In this document: positions 36,001 through 39,000 of the stretch, piece after piece
How the letters are laid out: every line of letters starts with the position of its first letter
How positions within the stretch are numbered: position 1 is the first letter of the stretch
Assembly (NCBI GenBank): GCA_016213945.1
Contig: JACQZF010000002.1
Coordinates: 12,675 to 76,674 of the forward strand
Source of the DNA: Nitrospirota bacterium
GTDB lineage: Bacteria > Nitrospirota > Thermodesulfovibrionia > UBA6902
Direction: 5' to 3'
DNA: 64,000 nucleotides
Position numbers: made by a program

Positions 36001-39000
36001 CCAGGAAGCGAGTATCCAGATAAAGAATTTCGAGACGGCCTTAAGACTGTACAAGACCGACAACGGCTTTTATCCATCCACTGAACAGGGGCTTCAGGCT
36101 TTGATCACAATCCCCTCAACCGGACAGATACCCGAACACTACAGGCAGGGAGGATACCTGGAGAAAAAAAACCTGCCTAAAGACCCCTGGGGCAATGAAT
36201 ACATTTACATCTCCCCCGGCACACAGGGCGATTATGACATCATCACTTACGGGGCCGACGGCCAGCCGGACGGAGAGAAATACGATTCCGATATCACCAA
36301 CCATGACTAAGGACAGAGCCTTCAGCCTTATCGAACTGGTCATTGTCATCTTCATCATCTCTCTTACCACAGCTTTGATAATGCCGTCGTTCTGGGACAC
36401 GGGGGAAAGGGCGCTGAAATCGGAAGCCAAACGTTTAAGCAGCACCCTGAGATATGTGTATGATGAAGCTATAGGCAAAAAACTGACTTATAAATTAAAA
36501 TTCAATCTTAGCGATGATAAATGGGGGTTCGAGAGTGAAAAGGAATCCCGCTCTTTTGAGATGGCAAGAGGCGTAACGTTTAGAGATATTCTCATTCCGT
36601 CACACGGCGAGATCTCCGATGGAGAAGTCACTGTAGAGTTCGGGCCCACCGGCCCTGATGAGCCTTTGACCATACATCTAATCAAAGGTGAAAAAGAGTA
36701 CACCGTGATCTTTAACCATATTAACGGCAGAACCAAGATCCTCGAAGGATACATTGTGAAGGAAGAAGGCAAAGAGCAGAAAGATGAAAATAGAAGTTAA
36801 GAAAATGAGAAGTTCTGAAGATGAGAAAAGGGGGGGATTTTTATCCTCTCAATTTCTCAACCTCTCAACTTCCATGTCTTCCGGCTTCACCCTGCTTGAG
36901 GTGATGATCGCGCTTGCGATCATTTCGATGACCCTCATGACAGTGCTGCACACAGTTAATTATCACGCCAATATCTTAAATGAAAACGCACTCACCACTG
37001 AATTGACCCAGTTGGCAAAAGGGAAAATATTAGACCTGGAAACAAATATCGTAAGTTCCACCGGCAAATTTGAGGGGACCGAATATACATACGAGAACAC
37101 AGTCTCCGAGACCGATACCCCCGGAATAGTCGAGTTGAGAACGATCGTAAAGGGACAGGGCAAAGAGGTCATGCTGAATGAATTTGTCCTCAAAAAAACA
37201 GAATGACGAACATAGAAGTTAAGAAGATAAGAAGTTTTGAAGATGAGAAAAGCAGGAGATTTTTATCCTCTCAATTTCTCAACCTCTCGACCTCTATGTC
37301 TTCCGGCTTCACACTCATCGAAATTCTCATCAGCCTCACCATCTTGACTGTCGTGCTTGGCGCGGTTTACGGCTCTTTCTTCTCGGTCCAGCGCGCCCTT
37401 GAAAGATTCGACAATGTGTCACTGAAATACAATGAGGCGAGGACCGCGCTTGACATCATGCGACGTGAGATCGAGGGCGCAATATTAAAAAAATCCTCTT
37501 CCGCTTCCACCGAAAATACGCAGGACAAAACCATATTTGTAATAAAAGACCGTGACGTGTTAGGCAAAAGCACCTCCATGCTTGATCTCACGGCATTTGC
37601 TTTCAGGGGGGGCTCCATATTTACGATCTCCTATTATGTGGAGGAGAAAGACGGCAAACTTAATATCCTGAAAAAGGAATCTCCTTTCGGCGTGAAGTCT
37701 GAAAAGTACGTTATGGAAATACTTGAAGGGGTGGAAGGCTTTACTGTTGAGACACTCTTTAACAATCAATGGGTCAAGACATGGGACACGGAAACCACGG
37801 GGAAAATGCCGGATATCCTGAGAGTCAGCGTTGAATTTGACGACAACGGTAAAAAAGTAAAACTCATAGAGTACGCAAAACCAAGGGTAGGAATAAAATT
37901 GTGAACCAGCGCGGCTCTGCTCTCATTATCACCATACTTCTCGTTACGATCCTCGTAACCTTTGTGACTGAGTTCGCTTATGAGGTGTACATCGATACAA
38001 CCTCTTTATCAAACTGGCGCAATGCTCAGCGCGCGTCTCTCCTTGCCAAATCAGGAATGGCGATCTGCGCCAGCTACCTGAAACCCGCCCTGAACAGTTC
38101 GTATACTTATGTGGACAAGATAGTTTTTCCGGTTGAAAAAGACCTCGGCGAAGGCGCTCAGCTTGTAATTCAGATTGAAGACGAAAACACAAAATTCAAT
38201 ATCAACAGTATAATATATCCCAACGGCACGGCCAATGATAAAGCGCTTGCGTCCTTGAAAAAGCTTTTTGAGTATTTTAAGATTAATCCGGAACTCGCGC
38301 TTACAATTACAGACTGGATAGATCCGGACAATGAACCGAGGCTTTCTGATTCTGAAACCAGTGCGAAGAACGCTTTCCTCTGGAGCGTGGATGAATTAAA
38401 ATTGATAAAGGGAATGGACAAAGACATCTTTGAAAAGATCAGCCCTTATCTGACCGTTTACGGTGACGGTAAAATAAACATAAACACCTCGGCGCTGCCC
38501 GTGCTCGTAAGCCTTCATCCTGATATTACTGAGGCCCTTGCAAAAGGGATTATCGATTACAGGGAGAACGCGCCCTTTGAGAGCACATCCCATATAGGCC
38601 GGGTGTCGGGGATGGAGACAATCGGGACGCTGCTGATTGGCAATATTACTGTAAAGAGCACCAGCTTCAGAATTACCGCAAGAGCGACGATAAATGAAGC
38701 TACAAGGATAATCGAAAGCGTTGTGGACCAATCAATGAAGATTTACTTCTGGAGAGAAGGGTAGAGACGAGTCGGTGACTCGTCTTATAAAAGAGTGAAA
38801 AGTTGAAAATGCAAAGAACCGGATTTATTGACTGGACAGACGGAAATTTAAATTTCCATATTTTTGAGCAGCATAAACATGTTGACTCGGTCTCTGTTCC
38901 CGTGGAAGGAGAATTAAACCCTTCCTCCCTGACGTCGCTTCTTAAGACCAATATCAGTGAAATATATTTAAGCCTGCCCTCTTCCTTATTGACCTTCCGG

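What the first reader, a model, noticed from the sequence alone, without database searches (positions are those of the whole stretch)
36784..37320. Two adjacent minor pseudopilins carry long, near-identical 34-36-aa leader peptides
The gspI-like and gspJ-like genes each begin with ~105 nt that are ~90% identical at the DNA level. They encode MKIEVKKMRSSEDEKRGGFLSSQFLNLSTSMSSG and MTNIEVKKIRSFEDEKSRRFLSSQFLNLSTSMSSG before the G|FTL(L/I)E prepilin cleavage site. Translational coupling (ATGA and GTGA overlaps with the upstream genes) supports these long starts. Prepilin leaders are normally 6-10 aa. The leader is more conserved than the mature pilin helix. This suggests either a functional extended leader (a chaperone or regulatory peptide) or recent gene conversion of a cis-regulatory RNA element.
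Basis: seen in the sequence. Interest (0 to 1): 0.6.

Follow-up and report, generated by a model that had tools for sequence, protein, structure and literature searches.

The report
Palindromic repeat inside pseudopilin leader peptides
Two neighbouring secretion-system pilin genes start with near-identical ~100-base hairpin-forming repeat elements that are most likely read in frame as unusually long, throw-away leader peptides; related bacteria do the same with other repeats, so the cleaved leader seems to act as a safe harbour for selfish repeat DNA.

Summary
Windows 36771-36893 and 37193-37315 are a 123-nt direct repeat (88% identical; 87/96 in the leader frame) at the 5' ends of the gspI-like and gspJ genes of a Nitrospirota T2SS operon. 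Each copy is an imperfect palindrome of tandem octamers that folds into a long hairpin (z -4.4, -3.7). I first suspected non-coding hairpins with true starts at MSSG. Comparative data say otherwise. In 91 long H-I, I-J and J-K junctions from about 50 Thermodesulfovibrionia operons, the pilin frame is open across the whole spacer in 83. The other frames are open in 24 and 26. Start codons stay at the position overlapping the upstream stop while leaders range from 5 to 86 aa, and 57 of 61 long leaders are net positive. The internal ATGs lack an SD, lie in the stem and are absent from homologous elements. The same element family occurs in gspH or gspG leaders of other genomes, as a bridging mini-ORF between ftsW and murG, and intergenically. 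Best reading: a dispersed palindromic repeat tolerated in frame because the leader is cleaved off, with the two window copies recently homogenised. It is not a conserved functional peptide. New variant of known kinds (RPE-like in-frame repeats; long prepilin leaders).

The parts
36303..36800 (+). gspH-like pseudopilin gene (leader MTKDRA|FSLIE). Its stop TAA (36798-36800) lies inside the first octamers of repeat copy A, so its last ~5 codons are supplied by the element.
   Evidence: ORF list and sequence; Pfam N_methyl. The same stop-in-element arrangement occurs in L157 and L159.
36771..36893 (+). Repeat copy A (123 nt): the 5' end of gspI-like, including the leader-coding segment.
   Evidence: the repeat finder family D5; alignment.
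37193..37315 (+). Repeat copy B (123 nt, 88% identical to A): the 5' end of gspJ.
36784..37206 (+). gspI-like gene read from the long start (140 aa; 34-aa leader MKIEVKKMRSSEDEKRGGFLSSQFLNLSTSMSSG, cleavage before the F codon at 36886). Alternative in-frame ATGs at 36805 (27-aa leader) and 36874 (MSSG).
37203..37904 (+). gspJ gene read from the long start (233 aa; 35-aa leader MTNIEVKKIRSFEDEKSRRFLSSQFLNLSTSMSSG, cleavage before the F codon at 37308). The ATG overlaps the gspI stop (ATGA). Internal ATG at 37296.
   Evidence: (100% match to an NCBI MAG protein of 233 aa).
36793..36888 (+). Hairpin A: purine-rich octamer arm (~36790-36830: AGAAGTTA AGAAAATG AGAAGTTC TGAAGATG AGAAAAGG), a loop, and a pyrimidine-rich arm (~36838-36875: TCCTCTCA ATTTCTCA ACCTCTCA ACTTCC). 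The stem base pairs GAAGTT with the GGCTTC Gly-Phe codons. The internal AUG (36874-36876) lies in the stem.
   Evidence: RNA fold -38 kcal/mol, z -4.43; TRF period 8/16.
37215..37310 (+). Hairpin B: same architecture in the gspJ leader-coding segment.
   Evidence: RNA fold -30.6 kcal/mol, z -3.74; TRF period 8/16.
37901..38764 (+). gspK (GTGA overlap with gspJ; short 5-aa leader VNQRG|SALII in this genome; 5-86 aa in orthologues).

Best explanation
Each duplicated segment is a copy of a dispersed, imperfectly palindromic short-tandem-repeat element: octamer arrays with a purine-rich arm, a loop and a pyrimidine-rich arm. It sits inside the leader-coding part of a minor pseudopilin gene and is translated in frame. 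Translation starts at the ATG that overlaps the end of the upstream gene (coupled re-initiation) and the ribosome melts the hairpin. The purine arm is read as a K/E/R-rich stretch and the pyrimidine arm as an S/L/F-rich stretch. The resulting 34-35-aa, net-positive leader stays in the cytoplasm and is removed by the prepilin peptidase at G|FTL(L/I)E. Because the leader is discarded, its length and sequence are almost free to vary, provided the frame stays open. It is therefore one of the few coding places where such selfish repeats can persist. The two window copies are near-identical because of a recent intragenomic duplication or gene conversion between the 5' ends of the adjacent paralogues. 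Shown: the repeat, the hairpin, frame and start-position conservation across orthologues, hypervariability, and dispersal of the family. Inferred: actual translation from the long starts, cleavage by a prepilin peptidase, and neutrality of the insert.
For: (1) Frame conservation. Across 59 long junctions (at least 45 nt from the upstream stop to the +1 codon) from GTDB genomes, the pilin frame has no stop in 54, against 15 and 18 in the other frames (Fisher p about 1e-13). It replicates in metagenome loci at 29/32 against 9/32 and 8/32. After clustering related junctions it is 62/70 against 18/70 and 17/70, p 3e-19. (2) Start position. The start codon stays at the coupled position whatever the leader length: -4 (ATGA-type) in 24/44 I-J and 30/39 J-K junctions. 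Leaders run 5-86 aa with a median of about 21. (3) No alternative start. 40 of 61 leaders of at least 20 aa have no other ATG/GTG/TTG 3-15 codons before the cleavage site, for example L030 gspK at 86 aa. (4) Charge. 57 of 61 long leaders are net positive, mean +3.8, as expected for a cytoplasmic leader (positive-inside rule per PMC10191384). (5) Internal ATGs. The window's MSSG ATGs have no SD (duplex +2.8 and +0.4 kcal, against -6 to -13 for many genes here) and lie in the stem. MSSG also lacks the basic residue seen in all short orthologous leaders such as MKDKG and MKEKSG. (6) Homologous elements. Those in L001 gspH (41-aa leader, no other in-frame start), L157 gspG, gspI and gspJ, and L025/L088 gspI have no ATG at the MSSG position. 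(7) Dispersed family. It also forms a 38-codon mini-ORF exactly bridging ftsW (TAATG) and murG (ATGA) in L158, and lies after a ferredoxin-like gene in L159. (8) Recent homogenisation. The WIN copies are 90% identical while all other pairs are 61-70%, and they share a 31-nt exact right-arm block not seen in L001. (9) Differences between the copies: 6 of 9 fall at codon position 3 (p 0.04). (10) Precedents: palindromic elements inserted in frame in genes (RPEs, PMC10969869); leaders are variable in length and cleaved (PMC10191384).
Against: There is no direct evidence of translation or cleavage; everything is comparative. An internal ATG giving a short MSSG leader exists in both window copies, so dual initiation cannot be excluded. 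The gspJ long start has no SD and relies on coupling. No prepilin peptidase gene was found in the window, though this was only a motif regex. The purine arm is better conserved between genomes than the genes themselves: a 41-nt exact match between WIN gspJ and L001 gspH, against 66-76% identity and exact runs of 24 nt or less in mature genes. Pure neutrality does not explain that; it needs ongoing spread from conserved master copies, or a function. Leader twinning between gspI and gspJ recurs in at least 5 genomes, which might hint at selection rather than drift.
Confidence: 0.7

Rival explanations
1. The duplicated segments are non-coding intergenic hairpin repeats (REP/terminator-like). The real genes start at the internal ATGs (36874 and 37296) with 4-aa leaders MSSG|FTL, and the long ORFs are annotation artefacts.
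For: Strong hairpins. Elements of the same architecture are truly intergenic elsewhere in the window at 55130-55201, 58234-58310 and 63271-63370 and in L159. Short leaders are the norm for T2SS pseudopilins, and an ATG sits exactly 4 codons before the cleavage site in both copies.
Against: The pilin frame is open in 83/91 long junctions, against about 27% for the other frames. The coupled start position is conserved. The internal ATGs have no SD and lie in a stem. The ATG is absent from homologous elements, some of which have no alternative start at all, such as L001 gspH. MSSG lacks the basic residue of all short orthologous leaders.
Confidence: 0.12
2. The element is functional, not passive. 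As an RNA hairpin spanning the whole leader-coding segment it blocks independent initiation and forces strictly coupled, stoichiometric translation of the H-I-J-K tip-complex subunits (or controls mRNA stability). Alternatively, the long leader peptide delays or orders processing. Matching I and J leaders are then selected.
For: The hairpin sequesters the internal AUG and its base includes the Gly-Phe codons. Homologous copies in L157 keep strong hairpins built from different bases (z -4.3 and -3.6). The purine arm is more conserved across genomes than coding DNA. I/J leader twinning recurs in L004, L081, L035 and L002. In L158 the element keeps coupling overlaps on both sides.
Against: Many orthologues have short leaders, or long leaders with no significant structure (z about 0). 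The hairpin has decayed in L025 (z -1.5) and L088 I-J (z 0.1). RNAalifold finds only 1 compensatory pair and a positive covariation term. Leader sequences are unrelated across most genomes. There is no Rfam match. The family also occurs in unrelated contexts.
Confidence: 0.13
3. The tandem octamers are a phase-variation switch. Slipped-strand gain or loss of 8-nt units shifts the frame between the coupled start and the pilin body, turning minor pseudopilins on and off, as pentamer repeats do in the leader-coding region of Neisseria opa genes (own knowledge).
For: Tandem repeats with a unit length not divisible by 3 sit between the start codon and the mature protein. Lengths vary greatly between genomes.
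Against: The units are imperfect (75-85% matches), which disfavours slippage. About 90% of assembled consensus sequences are in frame. The differences seen between homologous copies are multiples of 3 (3 nt and 60 nt), not of 8.
Confidence: 0.03

Closest known systems
Rickettsia palindromic elements (RPEs) and other intragenic MITE-like repeats
   Same: Short (~100-150 bp) palindromic, dispersed repeats found inserted in frame inside protein-coding genes, translated as extra peptide and tolerated by the host protein (PMC10969869). Here a ~90-nt palindromic repeat family lies in frame in several pseudopilin genes and also in other contexts.
   Different: The element here is built from tandem 8-nt units (7-nt units in relatives). 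It lands in a segment that is proteolytically removed rather than in the mature fold. It is tied to translationally coupled junctions. No terminal inverted repeats, target-site duplications or genome-wide copy number were established.
Long leader peptides of type IVb pilins and of Streptococcus sanguinis T4aP pilins
   Same: Class III signal peptides whose hydrophilic leader is much longer than the usual 5-10 aa, ends in Gly/Ala, stays cytoplasmic and is cut by the prepilin peptidase (PMC10191384).
   Different: These are T2SS minor pseudopilins (I, J, K, sometimes G and H). The leaders are hypervariable between close relatives (5-86 aa), are repeat-derived and are not conserved as peptides. 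Processing has not been shown.
REP/BIME, Correia, ERIC-type intergenic palindromic repeats and cyanobacterial STRR heptamer arrays (own knowledge)
   Same: Abundant short palindromic or tandem repeats between genes that are co-transcribed and form mRNA hairpins. The window has several such octamer-array hairpins between genes.
   Different: Those families are classically extragenic. Here the copies are kept open in the downstream gene's frame and fused to it.
Repeat tracts in leader-coding regions of phase-variable genes (Neisseria opa CTCTT repeats; own knowledge)
   Same: Tandem repeats with a unit not divisible by 3, located between the start codon and the mature protein.
   Different: The units here are imperfect and arranged as an inverted pair of arrays, and no length heterogeneity was observed. 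See the third rival.

Membership tests
Type IV pilin-like proteins (class III signal peptide) | Gly/Ala at -1, about 20 hydrophobic residues after the cleavage site, Glu at +5; Pfam N_methyl motif | tested here: met
   G|FTLLEVMIALAIISMT and G|FTLIEILISLTILTVV. N_methyl E 2e-6 and 2e-7 at residues 31-54 and 32-56.
Type IV pilin-like proteins (class III signal peptide) | Hydrophilic or neutral, net-positive leader | tested here: met
   The gspJ leader is net +2; by my own count the 34-aa gspI leader is also +2. 57/61 long orthologous leaders are net positive.
T2SS pseudopilins (typical form) | Short leader of roughly 5-10 aa | tested here: not met
   34-35 aa from the supported starts. The clade median is about 21 aa and the maximum is 86. 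Distant lineages are mostly 6-20 aa.
T2SS GspJ | Pfam T2SSJ domain; position between gspI and gspK | tested here: met
   PF11612 at 31.3 bits, above the 28-bit cutoff. H-I-J-K synteny holds in 37+ loci.
T2SS GspI | Pfam T2SSI domain | tested here: not met
   Only N_methyl was found at E<=0.01. The assignment rests on size and conserved position between gspH and gspJ.
In-frame intragenic palindromic repeats (RPE-like) | Member of a dispersed repeat family with copies in unrelated loci | tested here: met
   The family is found in the gspG/H/I/J leaders of five genomes, between ftsW and murG (L158), and after a Fer4 gene (L159). Only two copies lie in this 64-kb window. Genome-wide copy number was not testable.
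In-frame intragenic palindromic repeats (RPE-like) | Palindromic; inserted so that the host ORF stays open | tested here: met
   Hairpin z -4.4 and -3.7. The frame is open and the other two frames are closed.
MITEs | Terminal inverted repeats plus target-site duplication; a partner transposase | not tested
   The boundaries are blurred by the repeat structure. No empty-site comparison was possible and no whole genome was available.
Intrinsic terminators | GC-rich stem followed by a U-run | tested here: not met
   The stems are A/U/G-U rich and are followed directly by pilin codons (GGCTTCAC), not a T-run.
Curated RNA families (Rfam 15) | Score at or above the gathering threshold | tested here: not met
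   Only miRNA-precursor models at 22-30 bits, against thresholds of 70-184.
Phase-variable contingency loci | Near-perfect tandem repeats prone to slippage; length heterogeneity | tested here: inconclusive
   The units match only 75-85%. Read-level heterogeneity is not testable with these tools.

The most novel reading that the evidence does not exclude
The elements are not passengers. They would be self-contained 'coupling cassettes': a stop for the upstream gene, an overlapping start, and a hairpin that must be translated through. On this reading Thermodesulfovibrionia use them to enforce strictly sequential, equimolar translation of operon neighbours. In pseudopilin genes they fuse to the cleavable leader, and the matched I/J leaders are selected to coordinate assembly of the GspI-GspJ(-K) tip complex.
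Probability: 0.12. Interest if true: 0.75.

Novelty: new variant of a known kind. Interest (0 to 1): 0.45.

Why it matters
If the long starts are used, three things follow. First, the prepilin peptidase and membrane-insertion pathway of this lineage accept T2SS pseudopilin leaders of 30-86 aa with essentially arbitrary sequence, which widens the accepted definition of the class III signal peptide. Second, a cleaved leader can act as a safe harbour for selfish palindromic repeats inside coding DNA, a counterpart to Rickettsia RPEs in a free-living phylum. Third, there is an annotation lesson. In these genomes one should not trim pseudopilin genes to the nearest ATG before G|F, nor read repeat-derived N-terminal extensions as functional domains. 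The frame-conservation test used here is a cheap general way to decide whether a spacer upstream of a cleavage site is translated.

Tried and rejected
(1) My first hypothesis was non-coding intergenic hairpins with MSSG starts. I rejected it as the main reading after the frame and start-position statistics. (2) RNA covariation: RNAalifold on six homologous copies gave a 25-pair consensus hairpin but only one compensatory pair and a positive covariation term. That is too few sequences, and the repeat register slips, so it is no evidence for selected structure. (3) Rfam: no family. (4) A leader-only profile search of the protein database needed a tandem-duplicated query to reach the 40-aa minimum. 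At a database size of 5.8e9 only two hits passed E<=10, and even the window's own proteins did not. It was useful qualitatively (L158, L159) but is not a census. (5) 'Pilin-specific leader cassette': rejected because of those two non-pilin contexts. (6) The literature search for octamer or heptamer array repeats in Thermodesulfovibrio/Nitrospirota found nothing relevant. (7) A prepilin-peptidase motif regex found nothing in the window; this is a weak test. (8) The gspE-gspF octamer element is in frame with gspF, but two of its three frames are open, so it is uninformative.
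Full report
**1. What is in the sequence**

Window 36771-36893 and 37193-37315 form a 123-nt direct repeat with 88% identity (family D5; alignment).
- A 29-nt core is present exactly twice in the 64 kb, against zero expected from shuffles.
- The copies lie at the 5' ends of ORFs 36784..37206 (140 aa) and 37203..37904 (233 aa).
- From the ATA codon to the Gly(-1) codon the copies are in register and 87/96 identical. Identity falls away immediately after the G|FTL(L/I)E codons.
- Pfam confirms a type II secretion operon: T2SSF, T2SSG, T2SSJ, T2SSK and GspL. 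The N_methyl prepilin motif starts at residue 31-32 of the two long ORFs.
- The 233-aa ORF is identical to a protein annotated in an NCBI Nitrospirae MAG.

Only gspJ (ATGA) and gspK (GTGA) have 4-nt stop/start overlaps. The gspI ATG at 36784 overlaps gspH by 17 nt, because the gspH stop (TAA, 36798-36800) lies inside the repeat. A further in-frame ATG exists at 36805.

**2.

Each copy is an imperfect palindrome made of tandem octamers:
- a purine-rich arm (AGAAGTTA AGAAAATG AGAAGTTC TGAAGATG AGAAAAGG);
- a short loop;
- a pyrimidine-rich arm (TCCTCTCA ATTTCTCA ACCTCTCA ACTTCC).

TRF reports period 8/16 arrays in both arms of both copies. As RNA the segments fold into long hairpins of -38 and -30.6 kcal/mol, with z -4.43 and -3.74 against dinucleotide shuffles. 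A control segment of mature gspI gives z -1.2. The internal AUG lies in the stem, and the base of the stem pairs GAAGUU with the GGCUUC Gly-Phe codons.

Elements of the same architecture but with a different unit (CACAGAGG/CCTTTGTG) lie elsewhere in the window. One directly abuts the gspF start (29767-29850, z -6.4). Others lie between genes at 55130-55201, 58234-58310 and 63271-63370. This made 'non-coding intergenic hairpins, with true starts at MSSG' my working hypothesis.

**3. Orthologues overturn that hypothesis**

GspJ homologues are 60-72% identical after G|FTLIE. Their annotated leaders range from 5 to 80 aa and are mostly unrelated in sequence. The short ones are canonical and basic, such as MKDKG, MKEKSG and MKTGKG.

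I fetched 36 Thermodesulfovibrionia/Nitrospirota loci from GTDB genomes, 18 from metagenomes and one Logan contig. All have H-I-J-K synteny. For every H-I, I-J and J-K junction I measured the distance from the upstream stop to the first mature codon.

| Data set | Pilin frame open | Other frame 1 | Other frame 2 | Source |
|---|---|---|---|---|
| 59 junctions of at least 45 nt (GTDB genomes) | 54 | 15 | 18 |; Fisher p about 1e-13, |
| Independent metagenome set | 29/32 | 9/32 | 8/32 | |
| After single-linkage clustering of related junctions | 62/70 | 18/70 | 17/70 |; p 3e-19 |

Spacers of 188-257 nt that contain obvious intergenic-type repeats are also open only in the pilin frame.

Further points from the junction survey:
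- The start codon keeps its coupled position irrespective of leader length. It is at -4 (ATGA/GTGA type) in 24/44 I-J and 30/39 J-K junctions.
- Leaders run from 5 to 86 aa, with a median of about 21.
- Of 61 leaders of at least 20 aa, 40 have no other ATG/GTG/TTG 3-15 codons before the cleavage site.
- 57 of the 61 are net positive (mean +3.8). This is what the positive-inside rule requires of a cytoplasmic leader (PMC10191384).

More distant T2SS/T4P-like loci mostly have 6-20-aa leaders. The trait is therefore characteristic of this clade.

**4. The window's own starts**

The internal ATGs (36874, 37296) are preceded by pyrimidine-rich sequence with no anti-SD complementarity (+2.8 and +0.4 kcal). 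Many genes in the window have clear SDs (-6 to -13 kcal). The long gspI start has a weak purine-rich SD-like tract (-5.4), and the long gspJ start is an ATGA overlap. MSSG would also be the only short leader in the family without a basic residue.

Homologues of the very same element exist in several places:
- the gspI and gspJ leaders of L157;
- the gspI leader of L025 and L088;
- in truncated form (60 nt shorter, in frame), the gspJ leader of L008;
- the gspG leader of L157;
- the gspH leader of L001.

None has an ATG at the MSSG position. L001 gspH has no in-frame start other than the ATG 41 codons upstream. The nine differences between the two window copies fall 6:1:2 on codon positions 3:2:1 (p 0.04), a weak hint of reading-frame constraint. 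I therefore rate the long, coupled starts as the functional ones at about 0.8 for this window. Additional initiation at 36805 or at MSSG is not excluded.

**5. What the element is**

It is not a conserved functional peptide. Across most genomes the leaders are unrelated, and many long leaders have no significant RNA structure (z about 0).

It is also not a pilin-specific cassette. A leader-only profile search retrieved two non-pilin ORFs.
- In L158 the element is a 38-codon mini-ORF. Its ATG overlaps the ftsW stop (TAATG) and its stop overlaps the murG start (ATGA; MurG N-terminus MNIVIAGGGTGGH).
- In L159 it follows a ferredoxin-like gene whose stop is the TAA of the first octamer (GAAGTTAAG), exactly as for gspH here and in L157. 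Non-coding DNA follows it.

The element is thus a member of a dispersed palindromic short-tandem-array family. Across the clade, leader DNA is enriched for period 7 (best lag in 43/91 gaps) and period 8 (15/91). Size-matched mature coding DNA shows period 3/9 instead.

The family consensus is strikingly conserved. The purine arm of window gspJ and of L001 gspH share a 41-nt exact match. The mature genes of the two genomes are only 66-76% identical, with exact runs of 24 nt or less. By my own arithmetic, 0.74^41 is about 4e-6. That argues for continuing spread from conserved master copies, or for some constraint on the arm. It is the main observation the 'neutral passenger' view does not fully explain.

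The hairpin itself is kept in L157 with different bases (z -4.3 and -3.6). It has decayed in L025 (z -1.5) and in L088 gspJ (z 0.1). RNAalifold finds a 25-pair consensus but only one compensatory pair. Rfam has nothing.

**6. Why the two copies are nearly identical**

On the common alignment the window's copies are 90% identical. Every other pair, orthologous or paralogous, is 61-70%. The window copies share a 31-nt exact block in the right arm that differs from L001. This points to a recent intragenomic duplication or gene conversion, or two insertions from one genome-specific master.

The high-identity tract stops where the distinct mature I and J sequences begin.

Twinning of I and J leaders recurs with entirely different sequences in L004, L081, L035 and L002. 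Each lies beyond the 99th percentile of between-genome comparisons; L098 and L157 lie beyond the 95th. Exchange between the 5' ends of these adjacent paralogues is therefore frequent. The paralogues share the conserved GGCTTCACC...GA anchor.

**7. Mechanism proposed**

Steps that are inferred rather than shown are marked.
- Ribosomes finishing the upstream gene re-initiate at the overlapping ATG (inferred from the conserved overlap).
- They translate through and melt the hairpin (inferred from frame conservation).
- The prepilin inserts with its positive, 34-35-aa leader in the cytoplasm (inferred from charge and established prepilin topology; PMC10191384).
- A prepilin peptidase cleaves at G|F (inferred from the intact motif; no peptidase gene was identified in the window).

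Because the leader is discarded, it tolerates in-frame insertion of selfish palindromic repeats. Insertions that break the frame are purged, and that purging gives the frame signal. The hairpin may incidentally suppress independent initiation at the internal AUG. A selected regulatory role remains a minority possibility.

**8. Relation to known systems and novelty**

The closest precedent for the DNA phenomenon is the in-frame insertion of Rickettsia palindromic elements into genes (PMC10969869). For the protein phenomenon it is the long leaders of T4bP and S. sanguinis pilins (PMC10191384).

Three things are new here. First, repeat-built, hypervariable leaders of 20-86 aa sit on T2SS minor pseudopilins across a whole class. 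Second, they are maintained in frame at translationally coupled junctions. Third, cassette exchange between paralogues recurs. I found no description of this in the searchable literature, but that search is not exhaustive.

I rate it a new variant of known kinds and of moderate interest. It is a clear annotation and evolutionary lesson and a testable statement about prepilin peptidase tolerance. It is not a new kind of system.

Noticed in passing
window 29748-29870: A CACAGAGG/CCTTTGTG octamer-array hairpin (z -6.4) fills the gap between the gspE stop (TGA 29759-29761) and the conserved gspF N-terminus (MPIFKY, ATG 29856). It is in frame with gspF, and an ATG at 29748 overlaps gspE by 14 nt. 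The MPIFKY ATG has no SD. GspF may therefore carry a 36-aa repeat-derived N-terminal extension, but two of the three frames are open, so the frame test is uninformative.
   Followed up: partly
window 55130-55201, 58234-58310, 63271-63370: Three more palindromic octamer-array hairpins of the CACAGAGG type lie between genes. One is between convergent genes and two are between same-strand genes. None forms a bridging ORF into the downstream gene. They show the genome carries at least two families of such arrays.
   Followed up: partly
L158 3001-3117: The same element family forms a 38-codon mini-ORF exactly bridging ftsW (TAATG) and murG (ATGA) in a dcw cluster. This suggests such elements are accommodated at coupled junctions by being translated through.
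   Followed up: partly
L001 ~1503-1622 (gspH leader) versus window 37212-37252: There is a 41-nt exact match between the purine arm in L001 gspH and in window gspJ. The mature genes of the two genomes are only 66-76% identical. The arm is better conserved than coding DNA and sits in a different paralogue.
   Followed up: partly
L004, L081, L035, L002 (H-I versus I-J junctions): gspI and gspJ of the same genome carry twin long leaders of a sequence type different from the window's, for example KIQDSKL(R/K)IQ...ILNFEF(S/L)ILNSRKAGAG in L004, where both junctions form strong hairpins (z -7.9 and -5.1). Most long leaders across the clade show heptamer rather than octamer periodicity.
   Followed up: partly
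window 36786-36800; L157 ~2078-2092; L159 ~1236-1246: The upstream gene's stop codon is supplied by the first octamer of the element (GAAGTTAAG). The element has therefore rewritten the C-terminal tail of GspH. The last ~12-15 residues of window GspH have no counterpart in most orthologues.
   Followed up: partly
window 23092-23127, 24580-24646, 25761-25790, 60137-60166, 60996-61031: Another dispersed hairpin repeat (GTCATTCCGG(N)6CCGGAATGAC type) occurs in several intergenic positions on both strands. The same type appears translated inside the 79-aa gspJ leader of L036.
   Followed up: no
window 23156-23206 and 41978-42028: A 51-nt repeat (80% identical) containing the hairpin GTCATGCCCGAAG...CGGGCATCC: a further small repeat family.
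   Followed up: no
window 41200-41924 and 42149-42597: Directly downstream of the T2SS operon are two pairs of small overlapping ORFs. The 110-aa ORF has a GSYAKG...DSDIDL minimal-nucleotidyltransferase-like motif next to a 140-aa partner. By eye these look like HEPN/MNT-type toxin-antitoxin pairs. Not verified with any tool.
   Followed up: no
window 42603-46181 (minus strand): A 1192-aa ORF contains large internal duplications: 260-nt repeats at 43158-43417 and 43722-43981, and 82-nt repeats at 43468 and 44023. By eye it looks like a secreted repeat protein and might be a T2SS substrate.
   Followed up: no
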